Shown: piece by piece, positions 9,289 through 60,108 of the stretch
How the letters are laid out: each line of letters starts with the position of its first letter
Numbering within the stretch: position 1 is the first letter of the stretch
Assembly (NCBI RefSeq): GCF_018977255.1
Contig: NW_024704742.1
Location: 18,354,001-18,418,000, forward strand
Length of the DNA stretch: 64,000 bases
Direction of reading: 5' to 3'
Source of the DNA: Callorhinchus milii
Taxonomy: Eukaryota
The notes under the pieces: model-generated
Told to the model about the DNA's origin: nothing
What the model saw: only the letters and a program-made list of their open reading frames with translations
The model's database searches: none
Program-made: the position numbers and the translations under genes

Positions 9289-9333
<45 letters not shown>

Positions 9334-9461: not shown

Positions 9462-9495
<34 letters not shown>

Positions 9496-17445: not shown

Positions 17446-17755
17446 CACCTCTTTGTTATGTTTACTTTTCATATTTGACCAATTACTTGGGCATGGGCAG
17501 AAAAGCAGTCAACCTGGGAACAAATGCAGCTAACTGCTATCTTTCTAAGTCATATATTGTAGCTTCTATAGCACTTACCAAATCATATTCGTTGGGAGGA
17601 GTGGTCATCATTGCAGGAATTCCAATTGGTAATTCAGTATGATTGTGAGTTTTACCAAAAGAACCAGGGAAGCGTTTATATGATTTACATTCAAAATCTG
17701 TGTTGGAATTGTTGGGAACTCTTAGCTGCAATTACACCATGTAATAATTACACAG

Positions 17756-18241: not shown

Positions 18242-18329
18242 GTAGGATTCGTATTACTATTATTATATTATTATCCTTGTTTCATTGCTTTGCCCTGGAA
18301 TAAGGTCACGGAACGAGTTGTTGCTTTGT

Positions 18330-21355: not shown

Positions 21356-21609
21356 TGGATCAAACCTGTTTGCATGATTTTTCAGTAATTCTTGATTGTG
21401 ATTTCTGAAGGCAATTCTAATATTTAGCATTTGTCATTAAAATAAAATCAATATAAACACCTTGGTCTTCATTGAAAAGCCCCATAGAAACAATATATGT
21501 TGATTCACTTGTGAATTGCATTGTCATGTATTCACAGATGATAGAGGGTTTATGTTTTTATCTCCTTTATCCCCTGATTATCTTTTGGTTGATGGGTTGC
21601 ATGAACAAG

Positions 21610-21753
21610 GTGGAGACTATTGGCGACGCGTACTGCGTAGCTGGAGGGTTACACAAAGAAAGCAAAACCCATGCTGTTCAGATTGCCCTGATGGCACTGA
21701 AGATGATGGAGATGTCAGACAAGGTGACGACTCCAGATGGTGAGCCTATTAAG
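21610..21753 (+). CDS. GUCY1A1: sGC alpha1 coding exon 6 (catalytic domain)
   Basis: [48 protein letters not shown]; 144 nt; donor AAG|gtgaga; the acceptor is a weak aag. Confidence 0.95.
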
Positions 21754-24284
21754 GTGAGACTCAGCTTTTTACTTATAAACAGCATAACTTACAGTTCCTG
21801 TTGTTAAACTTGTTTTGAAGATGAAGTACTGTTAAGTAAGTAGGAAATTACTTTCTGTAGAGTGTATTCCAAGCATTTTATTTTGGTTAACTGGGTGTCT
21901 GATACATGCGGATACCATGCTTAAGAGTATCCAAACCAAGCTGAGAGTTCCATACCTCTCACCTATGCATTGGAAAGTCCAGAAACGTTTATTGGAATGG
22001 AAAGTGCACTCTCTCCCCGAGGGACACATCCTGCTTACCTAATTCCAGAAAGTATTAGGCCCAGTTTGGCAAGAGCCAAGGGTTGGGGACCTCAGAATGT
22101 GAGTTGCTAAATATATCACCTTAGAGTCAGTTCAGCTCCAAGGAGACCCCTCTTACCTCCACCCAAGGAGGATAGTCACTAATTGGTTATTTGACATCTG
22201 ACAAGCATGGGTTTGACCCCTGACTAGGAGGATAGCAGGTACCAGGAACTCCCTACAAGCTTCCCGACGGGCAACGCAGCTCAGCATGAAATGCATGAGA
22301 GCATTGCCCACAGCTTGGACATATATCCCTTCCTATTAAGCGATGATTCCACCAGTTGGAAGTGCGGAGCTTGAGCAGCAGCTGTTTACCCATCTGCAAA
22401 CCAATCAAGCTGGATTTGAAGCATTGGATGTAAGAACATGTGTTCTTGAACTGAGACTCCAGATTACACCTTCTAGCAGCTGTTGCCCTTGGGCTCCGAG
22501 TTTCCTCATCAATTATCTGATGGACATCTCTCTTCAGTGTGGTGGGAGTACCTGTACAGGATGGCTTGTGACGTGCCAGCTACCTTGATGTTCTTGAAGT
22601 CCAATGCTGCATACCAGGCTTAGCCTCAGCTGCTTAAATCCAGGGCTTCATGTGAGGGCCTTTGGCAAATAGAAGGATCCACTGTGAAACCGCCTCCGCC
22701 TCTCGGGTGCTCAACAACAGGTCAGTATAGGCCGGAGCCCTCTCTCCCTGATTCCTGTGTTTGCCACAAATGAATCTCACTACTTAATCCTGGACTTTGC
22801 AAAAGGGGCATTCCCAGGAACGTGGATCCATAAAGGAGGACTGTTTGCAAATCTTACATGCTGCAAGCTTGACCTGCATTGAAACCTTGCTGTCCTTGTA
22901 GCGAGACAAGCATCACCAGAGTGCCCTTTGCCCCTTCTCTGTGTGGTCCTTCCGGACAGTGTCCAGGCAAAAGTTGGTGTTCACCAAATTTCAAGCATGA
23001 TATGATATCAGCCAGAAGAAGAACACTTTTAACATCCCTGAGACTTTATATATTTATTTATTTCAATTTTTATTCATCATTCTGAGGTAGTTTGGTCCAA
23101 TGGTTTCCTCCAGTATGTCAATCATCTTCTATTTTTGACTGCTTTGCTTCCATCGCATCTGTGATGAATTTGTTTTGTTTTTGCTCATGTTATAATGGAA
23201 CAAAAAACACTATTTTTGAGAAATTAACATAGCCTTATGTGTTGTATAATCTCATTCTATCCAACTGAATGGAACGTTCCTTTGTCTCTTGTGAAAAAAA
23301 GCCATTAGGAAGAACAAGAGCTATTCCTTTGTTGTAATCGACATGAAGTGCAGAATACAGAGGATGCGAACGGTCACCTGCTTTTAAATGTGACAACCTG
23401 CTTATCTAGTTTCATAAACACAGGTTGACAAGAGCCAAGGCTTTGGACCCCAGAGTGTGTGTTGGAGTAATGCTGAAGTTCAACTAGCTAAACCTACATA
23501 TCTTGCCATTTAGAGCAATGTCTGGCAATCTTCCTGTTGTTTATCCATCTAGGATCATCCAACCCAATAGGGCTTCAGCTTGCAGGGTTAACAGGAACTT
23601 AGTGAAAAGAATCCCTGCAGCAAGAAATCGAGTTGTACCTCAAAGGCCTGCAACTGAGCTGGGCTGGTTGATCTGTCATCAACAGTCCCTTTGAATATTA
23701 TAACTTATTCCCTCTTTGAAAATTGTGAGTCTTGCCTTGTATGAGAAAAATAATAGTTTCAGCAGAAACTGGTCAGTACATTTACTGATTCAAAATGTCT
23801 TTTCTTCCCCAATGGAAAGCTGACTATTCTTTAATTCACTTCTTTCTGTTAAGTAAACACTGGTGAGTAAGTCAAGTGTGGTTCAGTGCCTTCCCTAGGG
23901 ATGCTTTTAAATAAATGTTGTTGTTAGTGAGGATTCCATTATCATATCAAGCTATTTAAAGTTATCTAGCTGGTAACTTTATGTACTGTTTATGCAGAAT
24001 TTTACATACAGTTCCCAGCATCCAGACCATGAAAGGAACCAAATGTTCAGTGTAAGAAAGTTACTAATTGTAGAGCTAGAACATCAGTATTTACTGGACG
24101 CTGGATGTGATGAATGATCATTTCTCATTTCTTCTCTTATTGTTTCAAGTTCTTAATTTGCTGAATCAATGTCTATGCACATTTACACACACCATACCAT
24201 CTTTGCTCAGAATGTGAGTTAAAAATGGGTTCAATATTTATCACATTAAATTTGATGGTGACAGAATCACCCCCCATCCCCCAA

Positions 24285-25560
24285 CCTCCCATTGCCCCAG
24301 TCTCCCAGTGTCCTGTACCTCTCTGCCGCCTTCGACACTGTCGACCACTCCATCCCCATACACCACCTCCTCTTTACTTAATCTTCGCAAACCTGTCCTT
24401 TCCTGGATTGAATCCTACCTCTCTCACCCCCTCCACTTTGTTGCCTCTAACAGTCTCTCCTCCAGCCCCCACACTGTCATGTCTGGCATCCCCCAGGGAT
24501 CAGTCCATGGCCCTCTCCTCTTTAATATCTACATGCTCCCCCTTGGTGACATCGTCCGCAGACATGGGGTCAACTTCTACATGTATGCGGATGACACCCA
24601 ACTCTATCTTTCTGCCTCCACCCTCAACTCCAGGACCACTGCTGTCCTGACAGACTGTCTGTCGGACATCAAGTCCTGGATGAGGGCACGTTTCCTACAA
24701 TTGAATGTGAACAAGACTGAGACCCTCCTGATTGGCTCGCGCCAGCGCCTCAGCACCTCAGGCACTGGCAGCATCAACCTCCATGGTTGCACACTACAAC
24801 TCACCAAGCCAGTCAGGAACCTAGGTGTCTTGTTCGACCCTCAACTGTCTTTTCTCCCCCACATCGAAGCCATGACCCGCTCTGCCTTCTGTCACTTCCG
24901 TAACATCACCCGACTCTGCCACTACCTCACCCCTCAGGCCATCGAAACTCTTGTTCATGCCTTCATCACATCCAGGCTCGACGATGCAAACGCCCTGCTT
25001 GTCAGCCTTCCCAACTCCTCCCTTCACAGGATGCACACAATCCAGAACTCTGCAGCCCATGTTCTCTCCCGCACCAAACTCCGCGACCCCACCTCCCCCA
25101 TTTTCGCTCAACTCCATTGGCTCCCTGTCCTTCAGAGGATCCAGTTCAAGATCCTGTTCCTCACCTACAAAGCCCTCCATGGGCTCGCCCCACCCTACCT
25201 CTGTGACCTCCTAACCCCCTAACAACCCGACCGCTCCCTCCGCTCAGCCAGCTCTGGCCTGCTTTACGTCTCCCGACCCACCCACCCCACCATTGGCGGG
25301 AGAGCCTTCAGCCATTCTGCCCCCAACCTCTGGAATTCCATCCCCCAATCACACCGCCTCTCCCCCTCCTTAGCCTCCTTCAAGTCCCGACTCAAAACCC
25401 ACCTCTTCGACCACGCTATCGGTCTCGCCCATTCCCCTCCCCTTCCTTCTCCCTCCCTGACCCCAGCTCGAGTCTGAAATGCTGTACACTGACCAGCGCC
25501 TTGGGATGTCCTCCTGACGTGAAAGGTGCTATACAAATGTAATCTTCTTGTTGTTGTTGT
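24285..25560 (+). mobile_element. L2 LINE RT/3' fragment
   Basis: 304-aa ORF with [36 protein letters not shown]; (ttg)n tail. Confidence 0.95.
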
Positions 25561-25964: not shown

Positions 25965-26155
25965 GATTTTCATTTTATTGCCTAATGAACATAAAAACAA
26001 ATACACATAATCACAAATAACAATGGAACTGAATGGGAAATTGCATCCCTAGAAAGAAAAAGGTGGAGAAACAAATTAATGAACATTAATGATGTTTTTT
26101 GATGATGTGAGACACTTGATCGCATTTTGATTTGTTTCTAAAATTGTTTCTTTAG

Positions 26156-26310
26156 CTGCGGATTGGTCTCCATTCTGGTTCTATTCTTGCTGGAGTAGTT
26201 GGGGTTAAAATGCCTCGATACTGCTTGTTTGGAAACAACGTTACTCTTGCCAACAAGTTTGAGTCAACCAGCTTTCCCAGAAGAATAAATGTCAGTCCAA
26301 CCACTTATGC
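26156..26310 (+). CDS. GUCY1A1: sGC alpha1 coding exon 7 (catalytic domain)
   Basis: tttctttag|[54 protein letters not shown]; donor GC|gtaagt; 155 nt. Not in the ORF track; translated by hand. Confidence 0.97.
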
Positions 26311-26660
26311 GTAAGTTTATTATTCCAAGTACAATCTTAATCAATTATATTTATTGACAGTTTAAAGTTGTTTTACATATTAAATGTGACTTCTTCTATT
26401 TTATATTGTGTAGTGTTAAAATATTTTGATGTTGGATAGATCATGTAAATTCCAAATATGATTTTTGGAAGGGATGTTTAGGGATAACTGTGATAATCAT
26501 GAAAAACAAACTTAGTAAATTAACAAGTTTTTAAGTTTGTGAATGTTTACCGCAGTGACTACTGTCTCTGGACTGACCATTTCTGCATATGTTTCGCTCA
26601 CTCATTGTGACACTGAAAAACTTGTGTTTAATTGTACACCTCTCTTTACAAGGACTTTGT

Positions 26661-26976: not shown

Positions 26977-27491
26977 CAAGTAGTTTGACCTCCATAAGCT
27001 GCTAGATGTCACTACTACTTTGGAGGGTATGCAACTTATCCAGTTTATGATACAGTATAGGGTACATAACATAATCAACATTAGCTCAGAGTATATCATT
27101 TAATTTTCTTTGAATTTGCATTTTATTTTATGTACTTATATTTTAGATAATTACCAATTTTTTTGTTCTCACTGTCCTAGATTTTTGCTTCCCTTACTTA
27201 AATAAACCATAGATCTTATACTAATTGTTTGGGCAGAAAATACAAAATGATCATTTTATCGATGGAATTGACAAAACTCTCAATGGGAAAGCTGTAAAGT
27301 TGCTGACTCCAGGCTTTCCTCAGCAGTGCTTTTCATCCCACTGATCTTTGAATTATAAAATCTTACTCACCGCATGTACTTGAGTTACTGTAAAGCAGCC
27401 CTGTACCACGAGTGTTAGTGATATTCACAAGTAACCATGCTTTGTGTTTACACATTAAACTTTCTACCTGTCTAAACCTTTTCTATTTTAG

Positions 27492-27693
27492 GTTATTAAA
27501 GGATGATTCTGGGTTCAAGTTCACACCTCGCTCTATAGAAGACCTGCCTCCTAACTTCCCAGATGAAATTCCTGGGATTTGCTATTTTTTGGATGCTCAC
27601 CATCCTATAGATGGGACAAACTTTTCCACTGGCTTAGAGGATGGGCACAGCAAACACAGTAATACTGTTTTTATGAGGAAAGCTACAAAGTAG
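27492..27693 (+). CDS. GUCY1A1: sGC alpha1 last coding exon
   Basis: ttctattttag|G; LLKDDSGFKFTPRSIEDLPPNFPDEIPGICYFLDAH...FMRKATK, stop TAG at 27691-27693. No alpha2-type C-terminal RETSL PDZ motif. Confidence 0.95.
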
Positions 27694-32146: not shown

Positions 32147-35100
32147 AATGGTTGTTGTCATTGGGGATGAGACTATTAGACAGACAGACACAATCATCTG
32201 CAACCCCAATCAGAAGACCCAAAGGCTTTGTTGCCTCCCTGGGGCCAGGGTGAAGGATGTCTTGGCAGGGCTAGAGGATAATTCAAAGTACGAGGGCAAG
32301 GATCCGTTGGTGGTACTTCACAAAGGTACCAATGACATCGGTAGAGTTGGCCAAGATGACTTGAGAAGGGAATTCAAAGAGCCGGGGTCCAAATTGAAGT
32401 CAAGATCATCGAAGGTGGTAATATTGGGACTACTGCCTGTACCATACGACAATTGGTACAGGAACAAACAAATTAAACACTTGAACTCATGGCTAAAAGA
32501 GTGGTACGGAACTCAGGGGTTTCTTTTTATGGGTCATTGGCATGAGTATTGGGGGAAAAGAGAACTGTTTCAGAGAAATGGGCTGCATTTAAATCGGGCT
32601 GGGATAAATGTCCTAGCTAAATGAATTAATAGGGAAGTAAATAGGAATTTAAACTAGTAAAGGGGGGGGAATATATAGATAAGAGAAACCATAAGTTAGC
32701 ATTAGAAAAAGTAAAGATGACAGTGCAGAATAGCATGCCAGATAATAGGAATATGTTAACTAGGGGTAAGAAGCTTGGCAAAGCAGATAAGGAATCAGAG
32801 AGGAGAGGAAATGGTAGGAAATTAAAAATGTTATATTTGAAAGCGCAAAGCATTCAGAATAAAACTGATGAATTAAAAGCACAGATAGACACATATGGGT
32901 ACGATCGAGTAGCCATCACTGAAACATGGTTACAAGGAGATCTAGGGTGGGAGTTAAATATTCCAGGGTTCTCAGTTTACAGGAAAGATAGGCACTGTGG
33001 GAAACAAGGTGGGGGGGTAGCCCTGTTAATTAGGGATGAAATAAAACTAGTGGGAGGAAAGATCTGAAATCCGATGACCAGGTAGTAGAGATAATATGGG
33101 TGGAAATAAAAAATAAATAGGGACAGAAAATATTAATGGGAGTGGTTTGTAGACCCCCAAACAGTGATCACAATATAGCACAAGGTATTAATCAGGAAAT
33201 CAGTGGAGCATGTAGGAAAGGTAAAGCGATAATAGTGGGTGATTTCGATCTCCACATAGATTGGGAAAACCAAATTGACAAAAGTAGGTTAGAAGAAGAG
33301 TTCATTGAGTGTATGAGAGATAACTTTCTAGAGCAGCATGCCGAGAAACCAATTAGGGCCATCATAAACCTTGTTTTGTGTAAGGAAACAGGGCTAGTCG
33401 GCAGTGTAGGTATTAAGACTCCTCCAGGGCAGAGTGATCACAATATGATTGAACTCTGCATTAAGTTAGAGAGGGATATAGTTAATTCCGAGGCAAGTAT
33501 TCTGAATTTAAATAAGGCTAATTTTGTAGGTATGAGAAAAGATTTAGGTAAAATAGACTGGAGAATGAGATTAAGAGGTAAAAATGTAGACTAACAGTGA
33601 CAAATATTTAAGGATCAAATTAAAAGAAAAAGCTTATAAAACTGCCAAGAAAAGCAGCGAATCTGAAGATTGGGAACGTTTTAGAAACCAGCAAAAAAAA
33701 CTAAAAAAACTCATTAAGAGAGAAAAAGGAGTATGAGGGTAAGCTAGCTAGGAACATTAAGTCAGATTGTAAAAGTTTTTACAAATATATTAAGAGGAAT
33801 AGGCTAGTGAGGGTAAATGTAGGTCCACTTCAGTCAGAGACGGGAGAAGTTGTAATGGGGGATAAGGACATGGCAGAGTCCCTAAATGGGTACTTTGCAT
33901 CTGTCTTCACCCTAGAAGACACAACAAGTCTGCCAACAATAGAGATGCACCAAGGGGATAAGGACAGGGAGCAACTTAGGGAAATTTTCATTAGTAGAGA
34001 ATTGGTGCTAGGGAAACTGTTAGCACTAAAAAGTGACAAATCCCCTGGTCCGGATGGCTTGCATCCCAGGGTTTTAAAAGAGGTAGCTTATGAGATAGTG
34101 GAGGCCTTGTATCTGATCTTCCAAAATTCCTTGGATTCTGGAACAGTCCCCATGGATTGGAAGATCGCAAATGTCACACCACTATTTAAAAAAGGTGGAA
34201 AGGAAAAGATGGGGAACTATAGGCCAGTTAGTCTCACATCAGTGATAGGAAAAAATTTTGAATCGTTGATTAAGGATGTGGTAGTGCGGTATTTAGGGAG
34301 CACAATATAATTAGGCCAAGTCAACATGGCTTTACAAAAGGGAAGTCATGTTTGACAAATCTCATAGAGTGTTTTGAGGATATTTCGAGTAAACTAGATA
34401 AGGGTGAATCAGTGGATGTGGTCTATTTGGACTTCCAGAAGGCATTCGATAAGGTGCCGCATAAAAGGTTAGTCCAAAAGATAAGGGCCCATGGAATTGG
34501 GGAGCATATTAACGTGGATTGGGGAATGGTTAACGGGTAGGAAACAAAGAGTAGGGATAAACGGGTCCTTTTCAGATTGGCGGGATGTGACTAGTGGAGT
34601 GCCTCAGCTATTTACCATCTACATCAACGATCTAGATGAGGACATCGAAGTTAATATATCTAAATTGCGGATGACACAAAACTAGGAGGAAGTGTCAACA
34701 CAGAGGATGACATTAAAAAAATGCAGCGAGACATAGATAGGTTAGGTGATTGGGCAGGTAGGTGGCAGATGAAGTATAATGTAGGGAAGTGCGAAGTCAT
34801 CCACCTAGGTAGCAAAAACAGTAGAGCGGGTTATTTTTTAGAAGGGGAGAGATTGGAATGTGTTAGCGTTCAGAGGGACTTGGGTGTCCTTGTACACCAA
34901 TCAAAGAAAGTTAGTCTGCAGGTGCAGCAGCAATTAGGAAGGCGAACGGTATGTTAGCATTCATTATGAAAGGATTAGAGTATAAGAGTAGGGAAGTCTT
35001 GCTGCAACTGTTTAGGGCCCTGGTGAGACCACACCTGGAATACTGTGTGCAGTTTTGGTTTCCTTATTTAAGGAAGGATGTACTTGCCTTGGAGGGGGTG

Positions 35101-35580
35101 CAGCGTACATTTACTAGGTTAGTACCAGGGATGAAGGGGATGAGTTACGAGGATAGGCTGACCAATTTGGGCCTATATTCTCTAGAATATAGAAGAATTA
35201 GATGGGATCTTATAGAATAGATAGTGGGAGATTGTTTCCCCTGGCTGGAGAAACTAAAACCAAGGGTCATAACCTTAAAATCAGAGGCCAGCCCTTTCGC
35301 ACTGAGTTGAGGAAGAATTTCTTCACTCAAAGGGTGGTGAATGTATGGAACTCGCTACCCCAAAGGGCTGTTGACGCTCAGTCCTTAAACATATTCAAGA
35401 CTGAGATAGATAGATTTCTTATTGCAAAAGGGATTAAGGGATATGGGGATAAGGCAGGGTTAGGTTATTAGCTGGAGTTAGATTAAAAGATCAGCCATGA
35501 TTGAATGGCAGGGCAGGCTCGAAGGGCCAAATGGCCTACTCCTGCTCCTACATGTTATGTTATGCTATATTATGTTATGT
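32147..35580 (+). mobile_element. CR1-clade LINE, long decayed copy (ORF1 SGNH-esterase remnant, ORF2 endonuclease-RT, 3' tail)
   Basis: ORF1: VVVIGD.., CCLPGARVKDV, GTND, GLHLN. EN: AITETWL, GGGVAL, GDF, SDHN. RT: KSPGPDGLHPRVLKE, NYRPVSLTS, YLDFQKAFDKVPH, LVRPHLEYCVQFW, NFFTQRVVNVWNSLP. 3' gaagggccaaatggcctactcctgctcc plus (ATGTT)n. Several stops and frameshifts. Confidence 0.95.
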
Positions 35581-37439
35581 AATATATTTTTGTCTTTTGC
35601 AATGTAAACGATTGTTGGCAACATAGCGCCATCAATTTAACAAGCTAAAGCTCTTCAGTCTTGAGAGAGGGCATCTCAGAGGGGACCTTACAGACATGTA
35701 TAATATTGTTAAATGGAATTGAAAAAGTGAACCCAAAACAAGATTTTAGGATGCATTAAGACAGAAAAACAAGAGGATACATAGGTTTAGAGTTGCAAAG
35801 AGCAATTTCAGGATAGATACCAAGAAGATTTGTTTTGCTCAGAGGGTAACTTTACCAACCTGTCTGCTCTCTCTGCTCGGCAGGCACTAGCTTGCTCCAC
35901 ATCTCCCATCCTGCCCGCTCTATCATCTGTGGTCAGGTCTTCAGCCTTTCTGTCTCCACCCTCTGGAAGTCCAGACCCTCTCCACCTTGCTCCATTCCTT
36001 GACTCCTACAAGGCCAGTCCAAGCCCTGCCTCTTAGACCGTGGATACACTTGACCTTCTGAAAGTTTCTTCGGAGCAAGAGAATGATGATTCTGATGGAA
36101 AAAAGCAAACACTTCAAGCATTAACGTGTTTAGTGTGGAGTATATATCCTGTTTATAGAAGCAACCTCCCTTTCCCTGAGTGTGTAATGGGTAACACTTC
36201 CTTCACTTATAGACTAATTGAAATTGCTTGATCACAAGACACCTGAACTTTATTATGATCTTAGACTTAAGACAATTGTATTAAAGTTTGAGAACTTGCA
36301 GGATTTTGGAAAGTTATTTGTTACCTTTAGCCATCATTTGAAAGCTGAATTTTTCAGGCTATCACCATGTTAATTTCTGGCATGAACACGACAAAGAGGT
36401 AAGTTAAACTGTGCAATGTGCTCTGCTGTGTTCCCCCACTCCTCTCCCCCACACATACACCACCCTCAAAAATAATGTCCATCTTTAAAAATGGCAAACA
36501 ATACATTTAATTTATTGATCTTCAGTTCTTGAGGTGTCCTGCAGCAGAGTTTGCAATTTCCTGTCAGGCACTTTGAACACCAAGCAATTGGAATGCCTTC
36601 CAACCAATTATTGATCTTAAATGGAAAATGACAGTCAGTTAGCATCACAGAGGAATGGCACATCCGAGGTGACATAAGGAAGCAAAACCTTGACAAATGT
36701 CATTGTACCACAACAAATGCATTTAAAGCAACAATTATTTATAAACATGGCAAGAATTTAAGCGAATCCTTAACCACATTTATATCCAATTTTTTAAAAA
36801 AGATACAATTATATTATGAAATGCTGTTGAAAACATCTGACTCTAGACATTAAGCCATACCCCATTGTTTTCCAAGGTACACACAACACTTGCTCTACAT
36901 TAATATAAATCTAAGTTGTCATAATGTTTCTTTGAAGGCTGACAAGCTGGATAAATATGTATGAATTGCCTTTCTTTCTTATCACAATTACTCAAGCAAG
37001 CTTATTTCTCGTAATACATTATTACACAAACTGTACGCGTCCACACTTATTCACATTGCATTCTCTGACACAAATTCTGTTGAATTACAGCTAAATGTGT
37101 GCTATACAACACAAAATATAGTTTACTTTTGTCAGTAAAATATTGCTTAATTTAACTGTGTATGTTCAGGTTTGCTATGTAAAGTGTTGACACAGTATTA
37201 CATTTTCCAATATATTTGTGGCTAATTGAAGAAAAGCCAGAAATATGGTAGAAGATTTGAAAGAATATGAACATTTTTGAGGAAAGGCTAGCTCTTTGCA
37301 AGCATGTTTCTTTAAATCTTTACAATGTTTAGAATGAATTGTAGCATGTTCAATGCATTTGCTGTGATATTTGTTTAGACCCCACAAAAAATACAGTAAA
37401 CTCACTTTACAGTGTATTCTGATAAGGTGCTATATCAAA

Positions 37440-39025
37440 TACAACAATAACAAAGTACATTTTTATTGCGCTTTATAAGTTGGAGGACGTTCCAAGGTGA
37501 TGGACAGTCAAAGATTGGGAGTTTGGATCAGGGAAGGTGGAGGGCAGCGAGAATCAAGGTAGGAGGTAAACCGAAGGCGCAGTTGAAGAGGAGGGTCTTG
37601 AGACATGCCTTGAAGGAGGCAAGGGAGGGAACAAGGTAAAGGGACTGTGGGATAGAGTTCCAAAAAGTGGGGGCAGAGAGGCTGAAGGTCAGACCGCCGA
37701 TGGTGGGATGGGGGGGTCGGGCGGTGACCATGGAGCTGGCCAGAGCCTGCTAAGCAGAGGGAGTGAACAGATTGATATGGAGTTAGCAGGTCACACTGTA
37801 GGAAGGAGCAAGGCTGTGAAGGGCTTTGAAGGTGAGGATGAGGATTTTGAACTCTATCCTCTGAAGGATGGGAAACCAGTGGAGCCGTGTGAGGGTGGGG
37901 TGATAGGGTCACGGAGCCTGGTGCGGGAGAGTACACGAGCTGCATGGTTATGAATGTTCTGCAGCTTACAGAGGGAAGAGTTGTGAAGACTGACAAGCAG
38001 GGAGTTGGCCTAGATGTAATGAATGCATGGATGAGGGACTCAGTGGTTTGAGGGGAGAGGCAGTGGCGAGGCCGGGCAATGTTGCAGAGCTGGGGTAAGG
38101 CAGAAAGGGTCATGGCATGAATGTGGGAGAAAGGAGAGTTGCGAGTCAAACAAGATGCCAAGGTTCCAGACTGGCTTAGTAGAGTGGAGTGTGCATCCAT
38201 GCATGGTGATGCTGCCAGTGCCCGAGGTGTGGAGACGCCGACGGGAGCCAATCTGGAGAGCCTCGGTCTTGTTGACACCCAACTGGAGAAAGTTAGGTCT
38301 CACCCTGACATACTCTCAAGATGGCAGTGGTCCTGTCATCAAGGGTGGAGGCAGAGAGGTAGAGTTGGGTGTCATCTGCATACATGTGGAAGTTGACCCC
38401 ATATCTGCAGATGGTGTCACCAGGAGGGAGCATATAGATATCGAAGAGGAGACGACCAAGGACAGAGCCCTGAGGCACACTGCACAAGACAGTGTGGGGG
38501 CTGGAGGAGAAGCTGTTTGTGGAGACCAAGTGGAGACGGTTTGAAAGGTAGGATTTGAACCAGGCAAAGTGAGGACCATGAAGGTTGACATGAGAGGAGA
38601 GTCGGTGGAGGAGGATAGAGTGGGCAACAGTGTCAAAGGCAGCAGAGAGTTAAAGGAAGGTGAGGGGCAGAGGGAGCCCTGGCTACAGATGGACAACATG
38701 TCATTTGTGACTTTGAACAAGGCTATTTCTGTGCTGTGGGCAGCACGGAAACCTGATTGGAGGGATTTGTTGAGGAAGGTGCGAATCTGGGAAGCAACAA
38801 CTCTTTCAAGGACCTTGGAAAGGAAAGGGCGATTGGAAATAGGGCAGTACTTGGGAGAGCAGGGATGTTTTTTTGAGGGTGGGGGGTCATGATGGCTGTT
38901 TTAAGGGTTTGGAAATGTTGCCAGTTGATAAGGAGAGGTCGATGATGTCTGTGAGTAGAGGGGCAAGGAGGTGGAGCTGGGAGATAAGGAGTGGGGTAGG
39001 GATGGGATCAAAGATGGAGCGTGCA
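37440..39025 (-). mobile_element. L2 LINE RT/3' fragment
   Basis: Minus ORFs: [40 protein letters not shown]; reverse tail at 37440. Confidence 0.92.
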
Positions 39026-39266
39026 AGGATTATTATTAGGATTATCAGGAACAGTTGCTGTAATTTGGGGAAGTTTAGTCCTGCAAATGAGAGAGCTAGT
39101 GAACCTGGGCAAGGAGGCAGATGATCTCTGTACTCAGAGGAGGGTTGGCTGCAATGATGCTCCACTTACCAATGGGGAGGAAGGGTTGGAGAGTGTGTGT
39201 GGGGGGTGGGGGGGCGAATTGTCTGCTGTCATGACATTGTTCATTGGAGCTCTGTCCCTGAAGCCA

Positions 39267-40106
39267 GGCTGGGGCTGAGCTGAGCTGAGCTGGGGTTGAG
39301 CTGGGGCTGGGCTGAGCTGGGCTGGGGCTGGGCTGGGCTGAGCTGGGCTGGGCTGGGGCTGGTCTGGGCTGAGCTGGGGCTGAGCTGGGGCTGGGCTAGG
39401 GCTAGGCTGGGGGTGAATTGAGCTGGACTGGGCTGAGCTGGACTGGGGCTGGGCTGAGCTGGGGCTGAGCTGAGCTGGGGGCTGTGCTGTGCTGGGGCTG
39501 TGCTGGGCTGGAACTGGGGCTGGGCTGAGCTGGGGGTGAGCTGAGCTGGACTGGGGCTGGGCTGAGCTGGGGGTGAGCTGAGCTGGACTGGGGCTGAGCT
39601 GAGCTGGGCTGAGCTGAGCTGGGCTGGGCTGGGGCTGAGCTGGACTGGGGCTGGGCTGAGCTGGACTGGGCTGGACTGAGCTGGGCTGGGCTGAGCTGGG
39701 GGCTGAGCTGAGCTGGGGCTGCGCTGGGGCTGGGCTGAATTGGGGGTGAGCTGAGCTGGGCTGAGCTGGGCTGGACTGGGCTGGGGCTGAGCTGGGCTGG
39801 GGCTGAGCTGGGCTGGGGCTGAGCTGGGCTGGGCTGAGCTGAGGCTGAGCTGGGCTGAGCTGGGGCTGAGCTGGGCTGGGGCTGAGCTGAGCTGTGCTGG
39901 GCTGGGGGCTGTGCTGAGCTGGGCTGTGCTGGGCTGGGGGCTGGGCTGTGCTGGGGGCTGTGCTGTGCTGAGCTGGGCTGGGGCTGTGCTGGGGCTGGTC
40001 TGTGCTGGGGGCTGTGCTGGGGGCTGTGCTGGGAGCTGTGCTGAGCTGTGCTGTGCTGGGGCTGTGCTGTGCTGAGCTGGTCTGTGCTGAGCTGGGCTGG
40101 GCTGGG
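39267..40106 (+). repeat. Switch-mu-like G-rich pentamer array (GAGCT/GGGCT/GGGGT; GTGCT in the 3' part)
   Basis: Uninterrupted mosaic of 5-6 nt units; about 47 AGCT by hand count. Confidence 0.97.
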
Positions 40107-40420
40107 AAGAGGAGGCTTCCCTGCAGACTGGCGGCGTCGCCTGTCAATCAGAGCGGACGGCGGGGACTGAGACTGGGGCTGAGGCTCAGACTGTCGGAGA
40201 GGCTTCGCCGCTTCATCCTCAAACCATCCCCCAAACCCCCGACAGATCGGAGTCTGCAAACGCCGAAATGGTGAGTGCCGAGAAACACACACCGTCCGCA
40301 ACATTTGGAGGATTGCAACTGCTCACTGCGAGACGCCGCACACAGTGGCTTTTGTAACAGAGGGGAGAAAAAAAAAGGGGCGATGGTTGGGTTTTCGTCT
40401 CCTGACAAACGCGCGTTATT
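40107..40420 (+). promoter_or_regulatory. GUCY1B1 proximal promoter/5'UTR; CpG-rich, with TGATTGACAG (minus strand) at 40141-40150
   Basis: CpG cluster around the ATG exon; ctgtcaatca followed by a GC-box-like ggcgggg. Confidence 0.55.
40268..40270 (+). CDS. GUCY1B1: sGC beta1 coding exon 1 (ATG only)
   Basis: gccgaaATG|gtgagt, a consensus donor in a CpG-rich patch. Vertebrate GUCY1B1 exon 1 contributes only the start codon, and the next exon begins YGFVNH. Confidence 0.85.
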
Positions 40421-40431
40421 CCAATGCAATG

Positions 40432-40475
40432 TGAGAGACAGAGAGAGAGACAGAGAGAGACAGAGAGAGAGAGAG

Positions 40476-40508
<33 letters not shown>

Positions 40509-40618
40509 CACACACACACAGAGAGAGACACACACACAGAGAGAGACACACACACAGAGAGAGACACACACAGAGAGAGAGCGACACACACACACAGAGA
40601 CGGAGAGAGCGAGACACA

Positions 40619-40652
<34 letters not shown>

Positions 40653-40725
40653 GAGACGGGGAGAGAGACACAGAGAGAGAGAGAGAGACACACACACACA
40701 CACACAGAGACAGGGAGAGAGAGAG

Positions 40726-40756
<31 letters not shown>

Positions 40757-40941
40757 CACACAGAGAGAGAGACACACACACACACACAGATAGACAGGGA
40801 GAGAGAGAGACACACAGAGAAAGAGAGAGACACACACAGAGACACAGAGAGAGAGAGACAGAGAGAGAGACAGAGAGAGAGAGACACACAGAGAGACACA
40901 CACACACACACACACACACACAGAGACAGGGAGAGAGAGAG

Positions 40942-40972
<31 letters not shown>

Positions 40973-41255
40973 CACACACACACAGAGAGAGAGACACACA
41001 CACACACACACAGATAGACAGGGAGAGAGAGAGACACACAGAGAAAGAGAGAGACACACACAGAGACACAGAGAGAGAGAGACAGAGAGAGAGACAGAGA
41101 GACAGAGAGAGAGAGACACACAGAGAGACACACACACACACACACACAGAGAGAGAGAGACAGGGAGAGAGAGAGACACACAGAGAGAGAGAGAGACACA
41201 CACACACAGAGACACACACAGAGAGAGAGAGACAGAGAGAGAGAGAGGAGAGAGA
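40432..41255. repeat. Compound (GA)n/(CA)n array with higher-order duplication
   Basis: ~820 nt; marker block cagatagacaggga...gagaaaga recurs at ~40787 and ~41011; GUCY1B1 intron 1. Confidence 0.97.
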
Positions 41256-41851
41256 GGGGGAGGGAGGCAATGCTGATGGTGTTTTGTTAAACCTCTCACC
41301 TGCCTCTACAATGTGTTCGACTGCGATGTGCTGTTCTCTCGGAGCAATAATCGCAGGCGTTTGATTCGGTATAACGGAATGAATGTCCTTCTTCCTATTT
41401 GCAATGCCGCCCGGAGCTTTGGAAAGAGCAGAAGAAGAAGAATAAAAAAAAGCAGAAGCATTTGCACCATCCACAGTGTGTGAAATAACCCCCCCCCCAA
41501 ACCCCACAGTGCGGATTGCAACTGCAATGCAATGTGCATCAGCCGTAAAGAACAACAAGATGTTACAACGTTTGCAACTGCACTTGTCGGTGTTTTTTTT
41601 TTGTTGGGGGAGGGAGAGAGGTAAGAGGTTTAAGATGCTTTAACTGGGATGTTGTCTGGACGCCATAGCAGCACTCTTGGGCTGAGAGCACATCTCTCTG
41701 CCCTCCGCACTCTCACTCCCTCTCTCTCTGCTGCCTTTCCTTCTGTTGCAATTCACCCACTGCAATTATTCTATTGCAATTATTTTTTTTTCTCTCTTTC
41801 TTCCCCCCAACACCCCCTCCCCACCCCTCCCACCCTCCCCACCCTCCCCAG

Positions 41852-41925
41852 TACGGGTTCGTAAACCACGCATTGGAATTGTTAATCCAACGCAATTATG
41901 GATCTCAAGTGTGGGAAGATATCAA
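41852..41925 (+). CDS. GUCY1B1: sGC beta1 coding exon 2 (H-NOX start)
   Basis: ctccccag|[29 protein letters not shown]|gtaagt; 74 nt. Confidence 0.96.
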
Positions 41926-42859
41926 GTAAGTGAAGATCTCGTCGGCGACCTGAATGTGTAGCCCAAATAAAAGCCAGACGATTGGTACCCATTTTCCCTG
42001 TCTGCTCTGGTTCCATGTAGCCACATCCTACATCTGTTTGCAATTCTAAATGCTGTATCTTACATGTACTGTGCAATATCCTTAATCATGTATTGTATCC
42101 ATCCTCTGCATCTGTTTCATGTCCCCACATCCTGTGTGTGTGTGACATGTGTCCATGAATTAAATCTTTGCTGTTACTTGTCTTCTGCCTTTGTTGTATC
42201 TATGTTTCGCGTCTGCTACACATCCACATTGTGCTTCTGTTACTTGTGTCCATCTGTATTCTGTCTCTCTCACATATTCATATTGTACCTCTTGACACGT
42301 GCCCATATTATGCTATATTTTGTGAACAATTTTGCTTTCGGGTATTTTTGAGCCAAATAAATATTATTTTTGGATCTGATTAATTTAACTAGAACATGGG
42401 GATCGTGACAAGTAAAATGATTCAGTGGAAATTAGCTGCATCACTACTAAGGGTTGGTTTGAGCAAAGCCACTTCTTTGTGGAGTAATTTGGAAACAAAT
42501 CTACTTCAGTAACAAATGGGAATGTTCTTGTGCAGATGTGGAAGACTGACCTGGAAACGGACTAAAGGAGACAGAAAAGTATTTTATGGAACTTTTTATA
42601 TAACAGATGAAATGCCATACATGTGTCTTCCGGTGTAGCACGACCACTTAAGAAACTAGGAAGACAATTTAACTGGATAGCAAGTGCATGAGCTCCATAC
42701 TCTCGTGTTTAGGTCTTTGGCCCGGAAAAGCTTCTTTTCTGAGTTAAATGCTTTGGTTATCATTAAACATAAACATCATGCAGTGTCATTTTTTGATATT
42801 GTGTTTCATGCAGCCTTGTTAGTTGGATATATTTTAGTTTCTTTTGGGAACGTGATGAA

Positions 42860-43183
42860 TATAATAATAATAATAATCCTTGCATTTGATATAGCGCTTT
42901 TCACGTCGGGAGGACGTCCCAAAGCGCTTCACAGAATATACTGTAAAGTGAATTGACTGTATATTTGTGGGCGAACGCGGCAGCTAATTGCGCACAGCAA
43001 TGTCCCACAAACAGTCGTGGATTGAAAATGACCAATTTATTATTGTTTTTGGTTTTGGAGGGATTATTATGAGGCTCTGTGTGGAGTAAGGAAACTTGCC
43101 CAAGGTCTCGCCCTCTGCCTGGAATTGAACTCAGGTCTCTCACTTGCAAAGCGAGTGCTCTAACCACTGAGCTACAGGACTCC
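42860..43183 (-). mobile_element. tRNA-derived SINE, short subfamily
   Basis: Full reverse copy ending ...taaccactgagctacaggactcc. Confidence 0.93.
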
Positions 43184-53019: not shown

Positions 53020-53120
53020 AAAGGAAGCACAACTGGATGTGGAAGGGCAATTTCTGGTACGGATTATATATGATGATTCCAAAACATACGATCTAGTAGG
53101 TGCAGCAAGCAAAGTCCTCA
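53020..53120 (+). CDS. GUCY1B1: sGC beta1 coding exon 3 (H-NOX)
   Basis: tcctgcag|[38 protein letters not shown]|gtaagt; 101 nt. No exon 4 recognised before the window end. Confidence 0.96.
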
Positions 53121-54654: not shown

Positions 54655-56035
54655 CCTTTCCTCTGGCTTTATTCCCATTCCCTTAAAAACTGCCACCATC
54701 ACTCCCACCTTGAAAAAACCCTCCCTTGATGCGTCGCAGCTATCAAGCTACCGGCCCATCTCCAACCTCCCCTTCCTGTCCAAGATCCTGGAACGAGTTG
54801 TCGCCACCCAGCTGCGCTCTTTCATCTCCAACCATTCACTATTCGAACCCCTTCAGTCGGGTTTCTGTGCTGCCCATAGTACAGAAACTGCCCTGGTCAA
54901 GGTCACCAATGACATCCTGACCATCTGTGACCAGGGCTCCCTCTGCCTCCTCGTCCTCCTCGAGCTATCGGCAGCATTCAATACGGTCGACCACGCTATC
55001 CTCCTCCACCGCTTGTCCTCCCACCTAAACCTTCAAGGCCCTGTCCTTGAGTGGTTTAGGTCGTACCTCTCCCACCGTCTTCACTTTGTCTCCACAAATG
55101 GTTTTCCTCCGGCCTCTGCACTGTCTCGTGCGGTGTCCCTCAGGGCTCTGTCCTCGGTCCCTTCCTCTTCATCCTCTATATGCTCCCCCTTGGTGACATC
55201 ATCCGCAGACATGGGGTTAACTTCCACATGTATGCGGATGACACCCAACTCTACCTTTCCTCCTCTACCCTCAACTCCACGACCACCGATGCCCTGACAG
55301 CCTGTCCTTTCTTCCTGATATCCGCGCCACAACTGGCACCGCCTTCCATCACCTCCGGAATATCGCCAGACTACGGCACTACCTCACCCCTCACGTTGCT
55401 GAAACTCTGGTCCACGCCTTTATCACCTCAAGGCTGGACTATGGGAACTCTCTCCTCGCCGGCCTTCCCGGTACCTCCCTCCACAAGCTGCAAGTCATTC
55501 AGAACTCTGCAGCTCGTGTACTGTCCCGCACTAGCTTCGGGACCACATCACTCCCACCCTCGCTCGCCTCCACTGGCTCCCCATCCCCCAGAGGATCGAA
55601 TTCAAGATCCTCATCCTCACCTACAAGGCCATTCACGGCCTTGCTCCCTCCTACCTCTCCGACCTACTATCCCCCTACCTACCTGCCCGTACCCTCCGTT
55701 CCTCTGGCTCCGGTCTGCTCCACATCCCCCGCCCCAACCGCCCTACCATCGGTGGCCGGGCCTTCAGCCTCTCAGCCCCTAGGCTCTGGAACTCTATCCC
55801 CCAGTGCCTTCGCCTTGCTTCCTCCCTTTCCTCCTTCAAGGCAGGTCTCAAGACCTTTCTCTTTGACCGTGCCTTCAGCTCCCCTCTCGACTCTCTACCC
55901 CTTCCTCGCTCCCTCCCTTCCCTCCCCTCACCCTGACCATTTCCCCCCTGCTCGTGTCCTGACCCAACTGTACAGCGCCTTGGGACGTCCTCCCGACGTG
56001 AAAGGCGCTCAATAAATGGAATCTTGTTGTTGTTT
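54655..56035 (+). mobile_element. L2 LINE young copy with an internal deletion at ~55305
   Basis: [30 protein letters not shown]...QSGF...YADDTQLY; (ttg)n tail. Confidence 0.95.
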
Positions 56036-58067: not shown

Positions 58068-60108
58068 CGGAGTCCTGTAGCTCAGTGGTTAGAGCACTGG
58101 CCTTGCAAGCAAGACATCTGGGTTCAATTTCAGGCAGGGCGAAACCTTGGGCAAGTTTCCTGACTCCACACGCCTAATAATAATCCCTCCAAAACAAAAC
58201 AATAATAAATTGGCCATTTTCAATCCACGACTGTTTGTGGGACACTGCTGTGCGCAATTGTCTGCCACGTTTCGCCCACAAAGATACAGTCAATTCACTT
58301 TACAGCATATTCTGTGAACAACAACAACAACAACAAGATTCCATTTATAAAGCGCCTTTCACGTCAGGAGGACGTCCCAAGGCGCTGCACAGTTGGGTCA
58401 TGACCCGAGCAGGGGGGAAATGGTCAGGGTGAGGGGAGGGAAGGGAGGGAGCAAGGAGGGGGGAAATGGTCAGGGTGAGGGGAGGGAAGGGAGGGAGCGA
58501 GGAGGGGGAAGAGAGTCGAGAGGGGAGCTGAAGGCTCGGTCAAAGAGAAAGGTTTTGAGACCGGCCTTGAAGGAGGAAAGGGAGGAAGCAAGGCGAAGGC
58601 ACTGGGGGATGGAGTTCCAGAGCCTGGGGGCTGAGAGGCTGAAGGCCCGACCACCGATGGTAGGGCGGTTGGGGCGGGGGACGTGGAGCAGACCGGAGCC
58701 AGAGGAACGGAGGGTACGGGCAGGTAGGTAGGGGGATAGTAGGTTGGAGAGGTAGGAGGGAGCAAGGCCGTGAATGGCCTTGTAGGTGAGGATGAGGATC
58801 TTGAAATCAATCCTCTGGGGGATGGGGAGCCAGTGGAGGCGAGCGAGGGTGGGAGTGATGTGGTCCCGAAGCCTGGTGCGGGACAGTACACGAGCTGCAG
58901 AGTTCTGAATGACCTGCAGCTTGTGGAGGGAGGTGGCGGGAAGGCCGGCGAGGAGAGAGTTCCCATAGTCCAGCCTTGAGGTGACAAAGGCGTGACCAGG
59001 GTTTCAGCAGCGTGAGGGGTGAGGTAGTGCCGTAGTCTGGCGATGTTCCGGAGGTGATGGAAGGCGGTGCCAGTTGTGGTGCGGATGTGAGGGAGAAAGG
59101 ACAGCTCAGGGTCGAACAAAACGCCGAGGTTCCTGACTGGCTTTGAGAGGTGGAGAGTGCAGCCTTGGATGCTGATGGTGTCAGCGCCTGAGGTGTGGAG
59201 GCGCTGACGTGAGCCAATCAGGAGGGCCTCGGTTTTTCGCACGTTGAGCTGAAGAAAGTTGTCTCTCGTCCAGGACTCGATGTCGGACAGGCAGCTGTCA
59301 GGACATCGGTGGTCGTGGAGTTGAGAGTAGAGGAGGAAAGGTAGAGTTGGGTGTCATCCGCATACATGTGGAAGTTAACTCCATGTCTGCGGATGATGTC
59401 ACCAAGGGGGAGCATATAGAGGGTGAAGAGGAGGGGACCGAGGACAGAGCCCTGAGGGACACCACATGAGACAGTACGGGGGGTGGAGGAGAAGCCATTC
59501 GTCGAGACAAAGTGAAGACGGTGAGAAAGGTACGACCTAAACCATTCAAGGACAGTGCCTTGAAGGTTGAGGTGGGAGGACAAGCGGTGGAGTAGGATAG
59601 CGTGGTCGACCGTATCGAATGCTGCCGATAGGTCGAGGAGGACGAGGAGACAGAGGGAGCCCTGGTCACAGATGGTCAGGATATCATTGGTGACCTTGAC
59701 CAGGGCAGTTTCTGTGCTATGGGCAGCACGGAAACCTGACTGAAGGGGTTCGAAAAGTGAATGGGTGGAAAGGAAAGAGCGCAGTTGGGAGGCGACAACT
59801 CTTTCCAAGACCTTGGAGAGAAAGGGGAGGTTGGAGATGGGCCGGTAGCTTGATAGCTGCGACGCATCAAGGGAGGGTTTTTTCAGGGTGGGCGTGATGG
59901 TGGCAGTTTTTAATGGAATGGGGACAGAGCCAGAGGAGAGGGACAGGTTGATGATGTCAGTGATATGTGGGGCAAGAAAGTGGAGCTGGGAGATAAGGAG
60001 TGGAGTGGGGATGGGGTCAAGGGGGGGGGTCAAGGGGGGGTGAAGCGCTTTGAGACGTCTAGAAGACGTGAAAAGCGCTTTATCAAATGCAAGGATTATT
60101 ATTTTATT
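58068..60108 (+). mobile_element. Short-subfamily SINE split by an L2 insertion (58068-58318 and 60040-60108)
   Basis: ...attctgtgaa | L2 | gtgaagcgctttgagacgtc...tcaaatgcaaggattatt. Confidence 0.92.
58319..60039 (-). mobile_element. L2 LINE young copy inserted into a SINE
   Basis: 271-aa ORF with intact [29 protein letters not shown]; flanked by GTGAA at 58314-58318 and 60040-60044. Confidence 0.96.

What the first reader, a model, noticed from the sequence alone, without database searches (positions are those of the whole stretch)
39267..40106. Immunoglobulin switch-mu-like (GAGCT/GGGCT/GGGGT) array directly upstream of GUCY1B1
Seen: ~840 bp made of GAGCT, GGGCT, GGGGCT, GGACT and GTGCT units, with about 47 AGCT palindromes by hand count. 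The motif GGGGTGAGCTGAGCT occurs near 39532, 39570 and 39743. It is G-rich on the strand that is sense for both genes and ends ~160 bp before the beta1 ATG. The last ~200 bp switch to GTGCT units, implying local expansion with subunit turnover. Known: mammalian S-mu is built from GAGCT plus GGGGT/GGGCT pentamers; AGCT is the overlapping AID hotspot; G-rich non-template strands favour R-loops and G-quadruplexes; cartilaginous fish have AID but are not known to have canonical switch regions. Inference: a switch-like array at a non-Ig promoter could act as an R-loop/G4 regulatory element, an AID off-target or recombination hotspot, or show how S regions can arise from simple-repeat drift. A neutral satellite is also plausible.
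Basis: partly seen in the sequence, partly recalled or inferred. Interest (0 to 1): 0.75.

Follow-up and report, generated by a model that had tools for sequence, protein, structure and literature searches.

The report
Variable G-rich repeat upstream of GUCY1B1
An 840-base run of five-letter G-rich repeats sits just upstream of the soluble guanylate cyclase beta-1 gene of what looks like a cartilaginous fish, but the genome holds many such fast-changing arrays and none was found next to antibody genes, so it is most likely an ordinary minisatellite.

Summary
Window 39267-40106 is an 840-bp array of GAGCT, GGGCT, GGGGCT, GTGCT and GGACT units. It has exactly 47 AGCT sites and strong G skew, and it ends 161 bp before the beta-1 ATG.

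It is not special to this promoter. A pattern of five consecutive GAGCT/GGGCT units occurs 813 times in the 0.99-Gb genome, against 6 for a reversed control, at many unlinked places. At least 8 other places are as AGCT-dense, and some of those are longer. The flanks of the other arrays are unrelated to this one's.

Four antibody heavy-chain clusters with a recognisable V end and J have background AGCT density between J and the constant exons. No array listed lies within 690 kb of any constant-domain exon listed.

The assembly holds three copies of the whole locus. Their flanks are 99.4-100% identical, but the arrays are 840, 969 and 843 bp long and only 77-88% identical, so the array is hypervariable.

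A spliced transcript contig starts at or upstream of 40206. The transcription start is not mapped.

Best reading: a member of a dispersed, fast-evolving G-rich minisatellite family that lies next to a promoter. A regulatory role (G4 element, length variant or pause site) remains possible but untested. The switch-region/AID reading is not supported.

The parts
39267..40106 (+). G-rich penta/hexanucleotide array (GAGCT, GGGCT, GGGGCT, GTGCT, GGACT units). G-rich strand is +. GTGCT-rich 3' quarter begins about 39890.
   Evidence: It has 9 non-overlapping canonical G4 motifs on +, 0 on -. It is 840/969/843 bp in the three assembly copies.
40107..40270 (+). Unique CpG-rich segment with the beta-1 core promoter and/or 5'UTR and exon 1. 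Exon 1 ends with ATG (40268-40270) followed by a GT donor.
   Evidence: CpG o/e is 0.83 in the 300 bp after the array. A transcript contig of run X1 covers 40206-40270 and continues into exon 2.
40271..41851 (+). beta-1 intron 1, holding an 824-bp (GA)n/(CA)n tract at 40433-41256.
   Evidence: The tract is 824/813/817 bp in the three copies.
41852..41925 (+). beta-1 exon 2 ([25 protein letters not shown]).
   Evidence: The loose end of the X1 contig after 40270 equals the first 30 bases of this exon.
53020..53120 (+). beta-1 exon 3 ([34 protein letters not shown]).
   Evidence: HNOB match. Best solved-structure match is sGC beta-1 residues 24-62, E 1e-14. Borders.
27490..27693 (+). Last coding exon of the upstream alpha-type sGC gene. 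Stop codon TAG at 27691-27693, 11.6 kb before the array.
   Evidence: Alpha identity: the exon at 17750-18067 matches sGC alpha-1 residues 362-466, E 1e-50. Domain exons.
37420..39010 (-). Old, inverted copy (72-74% identity) of the interspersed repeat also present at 24311-25555. It accounts for the G skew that starts well upstream of the array.
   Evidence: the same genomic places match both stretches, on opposite strands; skew.

Best explanation
The array is a hypervariable G-rich minisatellite, one member of a large dispersed family of (GNGCT/GGGGCT)n arrays in this genome. It happens to lie in the 12.6-kb spacer between the tandem alpha-1 and beta-1 soluble guanylate cyclase genes and abuts the beta-1 promoter. 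It grows, shrinks and swaps unit variants by replication slippage and unequal exchange or gene conversion. This mechanism is inferred from the pattern of differences between copies; it is not shown. Its likeness to the mammalian mu switch region is compositional convergence: GAGCT units and G runs. There is no tie to antibody genes or to AID. Any effect on beta-1 expression would be a by-product of position and is unproven.
For: (1) The family is abundant. (GRGCT)x5 occurs 404 times forward and 409 reverse, against 3+3 for the reversed control. The first 100 rows alone fall in 16 separate places on contig C1 (this one included) and 2 on C2. The array as a query gave 762 first-look candidates; 40 were scored, giving 136 matches on more than 20 contigs. 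(2) This array is not unusual within the family. Of 18 distinct other places among the 30 loci fetched, 8 have 38-83 AGCT per kb. Examples are C2:28.575 Mb (1471 bp, 63/kb), C3:86.32 Mb (1254 bp, 60/kb) and C3:30.22 Mb (857 bp, 83/kb). Two more have 26-31/kb, 6 have 10/kb or less, and 2 were not parsed. (3) The arrays are not carried by one mobile element. Of 29 other loci, only the two extra copies of this same locus share its flanks. (4) The array is hypervariable. Three assembly copies of the locus have flanks 99.4-100% identical. Their arrays are 840, 969 and 843 bp long, 77-88% identical, with 8-22 gap events. Unit order stays colinear, but units are gained and lost and G runs change length. 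(5) There is no antibody link. Six 10-kb stretches upstream of runs of C1-set exons have 3.4-4.1 AGCT per kb and at most 5 per 500 bp, against 29-30 per 500 bp in the array. Four of the six show a V end and a J segment with a donor site, so they are real heavy-chain clusters. TRF on 2 of the 6 found no such array. Comparing the lists by eye, the nearest array/C1-set pair is about 690 kb apart. (6) A review states that cartilaginous fish lack switch regions (PMC4279169, passage read).
Against: The array is placed strikingly. It ends 100 bp upstream of the most 5' transcribed base seen and 161 bp before the ATG, with its G-rich strand on the sense strand of both flanking genes. It holds 9 of the 18 +-strand canonical G4 motifs of the window. 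A second array (C2:103.47 Mb) is also followed on its G-rich strand by a CpG-rich segment, with an ATG and a signal-peptide-like reading frame ending at a GT. An association of the family with promoters is therefore not excluded. I could not test it, because no gene annotation was available and my CpG proxy proved unspecific. Conservation in other species was not testable.
Confidence: 0.8

Rival explanations
1. The array is a promoter-proximal length-variable regulatory element. It would form G-quadruplexes, bind G-box factors or exclude nucleosomes, and so tune beta-1 transcription in an allele-length-dependent way, as the insulin-linked polymorphic region does in the human insulin promoter.
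For: It lies directly against a CpG-rich promoter segment. It has 76 G runs of 3 or more and 9 canonical G4 motifs, all on one strand. Length and sequence differ between copies. Precedent: the ILPR is a VNTR in the insulin promoter that regulates transcription and forms G4 and i-motif structures (PMC11336075 and PMC2691825, abstracts in search listing).
Against: There are no expression or structure data. Most family members examined have unrelated flanks, so function is not needed to explain its presence. Fast turnover between copies argues against constraint on its sequence.
Confidence: 0.12
2. The array is a G-rich pause or R-loop element that stops read-through transcription from the upstream alpha-1 gene and shields the beta-1 promoter from transcriptional interference.
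For: Only sense read-through from alpha-1 would make G-rich RNA over the array, which is the orientation that favours R-loops (inference from strand). Precedent: R-loops form over G-rich pause sites downstream of poly(A) signals and promote termination (PMC3145960, abstract in search listing).
Against: The array is 11.6 kb past the alpha-1 stop codon. Many AATAAA/ATTAAA signals and interspersed repeats lie in between. Known pause elements sit close to the poly(A) site. No read-through RNA was shown.
Confidence: 0.05
3. The array is a switch-region-like AID target, either a proto-switch element or an off-target hotspot. AID would deaminate the AGCT sites during transcription in B cells and cause breaks or recombination.
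For: AGCT density is 56 per kb with a G-rich non-template strand. Mouse S-mu is (GAGCT)nGGGGT with n of 1-7 (PMC2193334, passages read).
Against: It is not in an antibody locus. The heavy-chain clusters examined lack such arrays. GGGGT occurs only 5 times. From the S-mu formula, AGCT density is about one third of that of S-mu (inference). Many equal or denser arrays exist elsewhere. Transcription through the array is not shown. Cartilaginous fish are reported to lack switch regions.
Confidence: 0.02
4. The array is an assembly artefact: a collapsed or invented simple repeat.
For: Simple repeats are error-prone, and the locus is present three times in the assembly, which shows assembly redundancy.
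Against: All three copies carry the array at the same place with the same order of landmark units. A 399-base contig of run X15 spans 40107-40432 and runs 73 bases on into the array. That run may not be independent of the assembly.
Confidence: 0.01

Closest known systems
Mammalian immunoglobulin mu switch region (S-mu)
   Same: Both are tandem pentamers including GAGCT, with G runs, a G-rich strand on the sense side, high AGCT density and kilobase scale.
   Different: S-mu is (GAGCT)nGGGGT, about 3 kb long, in the JH-Cmu intron and transcribed from the I-mu promoter (PMC2193334). Here GGGCT/GGGGCT/GTGCT replace GGGGT (5 GGGGT only). The length is 0.84 kb. The site is an intergenic spacer next to a guanylate cyclase promoter. 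Transcription through it is not shown. The genome has many look-alikes.
G-rich hypervariable minisatellites of vertebrates (Jeffreys-type; recalled, not from a call)
   Same: Both have strand-asymmetric G-rich short units, interspersed unit variants, a dispersed family with a shared core, and very fast length and sequence change relative to the flanks. GCTGG (chi-like) occurs 77 times.
   Different: The unit length of 5-6 bases is at the border between micro- and minisatellites. Germline mutation rate and polarity were not measured.
Insulin-linked polymorphic region (INS VNTR)
   Same: Both are G-rich, G4-capable, length-variable arrays immediately upstream of a promoter (abstracts).
   Different: The ILPR unit is a 14-mer (ACAGGGGTGTGGGG) and has a documented effect on transcription. 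No effect is documented here.
G-rich transcriptional pause/terminator elements downstream of poly(A) sites
   Same: Both are G-rich on the non-template strand for the upstream gene and lie between two same-strand genes (PMC3145960 abstract).
   Different: This array is 11.6 kb from the upstream stop codon and far longer than known pause elements. No R-loop data exist.

Membership tests
Immunoglobulin switch region | Lies in an Ig heavy-chain locus, upstream of constant-region exons (J-C intron or between C genes) | tested here: not met
   It lies between sGC alpha-1 and beta-1. By eye, the nearest pair of a listed C1-set exon and a listed array is about 690 kb apart, on another contig, and no C1-set match is listed on this array's own contig.
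Immunoglobulin switch region | Kilobase-scale tandem repeats rich in AGCT/WGCW with a G-rich non-template strand | tested here: met
   840 bp, 47 AGCT, GC skew about +0.5. The density is about one third of that implied by the mouse S-mu formula (inference).
Immunoglobulin switch region | (GAGCT)nGGGGT unit organisation of S-mu | tested here: not met
   There are 5 GGGGT against 47 GAGCT and 69 GGGCT (overlapping counts). The 15-mer GGGGTGAGCTGAGCT occurs 3 times here.
Immunoglobulin switch region | Germline (sterile) transcription through the repeats, with AID-dependent breaks and junctions | not testable with these tools
   Only assembled contigs were available. They cover 40206-40270 and the exon 1-exon 2 joint. 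No B-cell data were available.
Hypervariable G-rich minisatellite | Head-to-tail array of short G-rich units with interspersed variants | tested here: met
Hypervariable G-rich minisatellite | Changes far faster than its flanks (length and unit-map variation between alleles or copies) | tested here: met
   840/969/843 bp. The arrays are 77-88% identical against 99.4-100% for the flanks. Whether the three copies are alleles or recent duplicates is unresolved.
Hypervariable G-rich minisatellite | Member of a dispersed family at unlinked loci with unrelated flanks | tested here: met
Promoter VNTR with regulatory effect (ILPR type) | Array length or sequence alters transcription of the adjacent gene | not testable with these tools
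   Only position and G4 potential are shown.

The most novel reading that the evidence does not exclude
A genome that lacks antibody switch regions already carries a dispersed family of AGCT-dense, G-skewed pentamer arrays. This is the kind of raw material from which tetrapod switch regions could have been recruited. This particular member, held between two co-expressed same-strand subunit genes, would work as a G4/R-loop-forming boundary. It would stop alpha-1 read-through and set beta-1 promoter activity in a length-dependent way, so that array length tunes the alpha/beta subunit ratio.
Probability: 0.06. Interest if true: 0.55.

Novelty: new member of a known kind. Interest (0 to 1): 0.15.

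Why it matters
As it stands it matters little. It is one more G-rich minisatellite, useful mainly as a polymorphic marker and as a warning that switch-like composition arises easily outside antibody loci. Two facts are worth keeping. First, a genome reported to lack switch regions has many AGCT-dense G-rich pentamer arrays. That bears on how easily switch regions could arise. Second, exon 1 and the core promoter of beta-1 are a 326-bp unique island between two purine-rich repeat tracts of about 830 bp each. That makes the locus a natural test case for repeat effects on a promoter.

Tried and rejected

2. Own-genome searches with 19-kb flanks were swamped by interspersed repeats and did not show the duplicates. 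The duplicates were found through the array search and then by fetching stretches.

3. I wanted an unbiased sample of all pattern-hit places on C1. I stopped there and used the 30 loci already held.

4. CpG-island proxy for promoters. Only 1 of 14 other arrays has a flank meeting GC >= 0.5 and o/e >= 0.6 in the adjacent 300 bp. With 200-bp windows the criterion also fires at 14 segments of the 64-kb window, many of them in repeats. The proxy is unspecific and the promoter-association question stays open.

5. Reads.
- All runs offered were assembled contigs, so no start site can be read.
- Run X1 has no cover over 40107-40205. X3 laid nothing. X2 covers only 40368-40432, next to the GA tract. 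None of this is evidence of absence.
- The roughly 0.24 word shares in metatranscriptome runs of other organisms most likely come from the (GA)n/(CA)n words. I do not use them.

6. Rfam found no family at gathering score in 36000-43000.

7. Earlier findings of this scan: nothing for this genome, and one unrelated archaeal hit by sequence.

8. Literature. Searches with GAGCT + minisatellite, GAGCT + GGGCT + repeats, Callorhinchus milii + tandem repeats + satellite and soluble guanylyl cyclase + promoter + tandem + medaka listed no paper describing such arrays in cartilaginous fish or at this promoter. Only the listings were seen.

Full report
WHAT IS THERE

Window 39267-40106 is a tandem array. 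Tandem Repeats Finder reports period 5 with 158 copies and score 618; the same span also scores at periods 16 and 21. Its 840 bases are G 441, T 183, C 152, A 64.

Cutting after every CT gives these units: GAGCT x41, GGGCT x37, GGGGCT x24, GTGCT x19, GGACT x8, GGGGGCT x7, GGTCT x3, and a few longer oddities.

AGCT occurs exactly 47 times, out of 257 in the whole window. That is 56 per kb against 3.3 per kb outside the array.

GTGCT units are concentrated in the last quarter, with 15 in the final 210 bp. GC is about 0.70 and GC skew about +0.5.

One correction of emphasis is needed. GGGGT, the second unit of mouse S-mu, occurs only 5 times.

THE GENES

The downstream gene is soluble guanylate cyclase beta-1.
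- Exon 1 ends with ATG at 40268-40270, followed at once by GTGAGT.
- Exon 2 (41852-41925, after an AG) reads [25 protein letters not shown].
- Exon 3 (53020-53120) matches Pfam HNOB. Among solved structures it best matches beta-1 residues 24-62, E 1e-14.

The upstream gene is alpha-type.
- HNOBA exons lie at 13916-14173 and 17750-18067. Cyclase exons lie at 18083-18244, 21601-21762 and 26063-26341.
- The best solved match is alpha-1 residues 362-466, E 1e-50.
- Its last coding exon ends with TAG at 27691-27693.

Both genes are on the + strand. The spacer from stop codon to ATG is 12.6 kb, and the array occupies its last 0.84 kb but for 161 bp.

The G skew begins at about 37400, well before the array. 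That part (37420-39010) is an old inverted copy, 72-74% identical, of the interspersed repeat also present at 24311-25555.

TRANSCRIPT EVIDENCE

Only assembled contigs were on offer. In run X1, a 2840-base contig ends with 65 bases equal to window 40206-40270. It then continues with the first 30 bases of exon 2. This confirms the ATG|GT splice and puts the start of transcription at or upstream of 40206. The start itself is not mapped. Whether any RNA crosses the array is unknown.

A 399-base contig of run X15 spans 40107-40432 and runs 73 bases further into the array. The array/promoter junction therefore exists outside this assembly copy, with the caveat that the run may not be independent.

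IS IT SPECIAL? THE GENOME SAYS NO

The window lies in a 991.5-Mb assembly.

With the array as query, the first look found 762 candidates. The 40 that were scored gave 136 matches on more than 20 contigs. Several are multi-kilobase blocks: C877 13-22 kb, C708 37-43 kb, C582, C11 380-385 kb and C3 97-101 kb.

The pattern of five consecutive GAGCT/GGGCT units occurs 404 times forward and 409 reverse. The reversed control gives 3 and 3. The first 100 rows fall in 16 separate places on C1 (this one included) and 2 on C2. By simple proportion the genome holds on the order of 100-150 such places; this is an extrapolation, not a count.

I parsed the 30 loci fetched. They hold 18 distinct places other than this locus and its two copies.
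- 8 places have 38-83 AGCT per kb. Examples are C2:28.575 Mb (1471 bp, 63/kb), C3:86.32 Mb (1254 bp, 60/kb), C3:30.22 Mb (857 bp, 83/kb) and C1:136.9 Mb (about 1.5 kb in three blocks, 43-50/kb).
- 2 places have 26-31 per kb.
- 6 places have 10 per kb or less. These are built of GGGCT, GGGGCT, GGGGGCT and GTGCT only.
- 2 places were not parsed by my expression.

Flanks are unrelated. Of the 29 other loci, only the two copies of this same locus align beyond the array. The family is therefore not carried by one mobile element.

The exact S-mu-like 15-mer is rare. It has 13 matches genome-wide, and 8 of them are in the three copies of this locus.

NO TIE TO ANTIBODY GENES

A search with Pfam C1-set listed 150 matches. 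Comparing that list with the array list by eye, the nearest pair is about 690 kb apart, on C5.

I fetched 10 kb upstream of six runs of consecutive C1-set exons.
- AGCT density there is 3.4-4.1 per kb, with at most 5 per 500 bp. The array has 29-30 per 500 bp.
- Four of the six stretches show a V-region end (…EDTA[TI]YYCA…) followed 1.3-3.2 kb later by a J segment (WGxGTxVTV plus GT donor). They are therefore genuine heavy-chain clusters.
- TRF on two of the six found only ordinary microsatellites.

The multi-cluster layout fits a cartilaginous fish. A review states that the cluster organisation and absence of switch regions preclude conventional switching there (PMC4279169, passage read). Mouse S-mu is (GAGCT)nGGGGT with n of 1-7 and a mean of 3 (PMC2193334, passages read). 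That implies about 150 AGCT per kb, roughly three times the density here (my inference).

THE ARRAY IS HYPERVARIABLE

The whole locus is present three times in the assembly:
- C1, which is the window;
- C8 near 23.83-23.91 Mb, same strand;
- C44 near 82-160 kb, opposite strand.

Long alignments are 97.8-99.9% identical. Both genes are present in all three copies.

In the 2 kb upstream and the 326 bp downstream of the array, the copies are 99.4-100% identical. The arrays are 840, 969 and 843 bp long and only 77-88% identical in global alignment, with 8-22 gap events. The unit maps stay colinear: the same landmark units occur in the same order. Differences are gain and loss of units, changes in G-run length and, in C8, extra blocks in the GTGCT-rich 3' part.

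Two of the three differences seen in run X15 (40201 G>A, 40205 T>G) are the C8/C44 states. This hints that the copies are haplotypes rather than fixed duplicates, but it is not settled. Either way, the array changes tens of times faster than its flanks, which is the signature of a minisatellite.

HOW IT MOST LIKELY WORKS

Shown: the array is a member of an abundant, dispersed, fast-changing family of G-rich pentamer arrays. It has no antibody context.

Inferred: it arises and turns over by slippage and unequal exchange or conversion, and its position at the beta-1 promoter is incidental.

Not excluded: a by-product or co-opted effect on the promoter.
- The array has 76 G runs of 3 or more and 9 canonical G4 motifs, all on the + strand. 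That is half of the window's 18 on that strand.
- It abuts a CpG-rich segment, with o/e 0.83.
- R-loops need G-rich RNA. Here only sense read-through from alpha-1 would make it. Upstream antisense transcription from the beta-1 promoter would make C-rich RNA (inference).
- Precedents exist for both ideas. The insulin-linked VNTR sits in the insulin promoter (abstracts). G-rich pause sites lie downstream of poly(A) signals (PMC3145960 abstract). This array, however, lies 11.6 kb past the alpha-1 stop codon.
- A second array (C2:103.47 Mb) is followed, about 430 bp on along its G-rich strand, by an ATG with a signal-peptide-like frame ending at a GT, all inside a CpG-rich segment that starts just after the array. 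This is one anecdote. My CpG proxy proved too unspecific to test an association.

VERDICT

This is a new member of a known kind, the G-rich hypervariable minisatellite. Interest is low. What I could not do is listed under next steps: test enrichment at starts with annotation, compare other species, map the start, and see RNA or R-loops over the array.

Noticed in passing
whole window; G000:C8 about 23.83-23.91 Mb; G000:C44 about 82-160 kb: The whole alpha-1/beta-1 locus (at least about 76 kb) is present three times in the assembly, with long alignments 97.8-99.9% identical. The copies may be uncollapsed haplotypes or very recent duplicates. Two SNP states in run X15 match the C8/C44 copies.
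   Followed up: partly
window 40433-41256: An 824-bp (GA)n/(CA)n tract lies in beta-1 intron 1 and is 813 and 817 bp in the other two copies. Together with the upstream array it leaves exon 1 and the core promoter as a 326-bp unique island between two purine-rich repeats of about 830 bp each.
   Followed up: partly
window 58317-60000 (and 54655-56034): An interspersed repeat has dozens of copies 97-100% identical across the genome, which suggests a very recently active mobile element in beta-1 intron 3.
   Followed up: no
window 32148-35583: Another high-copy interspersed repeat (92-95% identical copies on many contigs) lies in the alpha-1/beta-1 spacer.
   Followed up: no
L008 (G000:C2:103470074-103473871), reverse strand: A 774-bp GGGCT/GAGCT array is followed on its G-rich strand by a CpG-rich segment. 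About 430 bp after the array that segment holds an ATG and a 23-residue signal-peptide-like frame ending at GTAGGT. It may be a second promoter-adjacent array in the same orientation.
   Followed up: partly
G000 contigs C877 (13-22 kb), C708 (37-43 kb), C582 (0.5-5.7 kb): Multi-kilobase arrays of GGGCT/GGGGCT/GGGGGCT/GTGCT, virtually without AGCT (0-8 per kb), fill small unplaced contigs. This is the satellite-like end of the same family.
   Followed up: partly
window 8651-10481: A cluster of CpG-rich segments, a (GA)n tract (9281-9534), a CA-rich tract (10108-10220) and a 149-bp C-rich tract with several C-strand G4 motifs (10333-10481) lies about 3.4 kb upstream of the first alpha-1 exon I located (13916). 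Its meaning is unknown.
   Followed up: no
L044, L046, L047, L048 (G000 contigs C102, C57, C52, C29): These are antibody heavy-chain clusters with a V end, a J (…WGQGTAVTVT + GT) and runs of C1-set exons, spread over many small contigs. The sequence between J and the constant exons has background AGCT density.
   Followed up: partly
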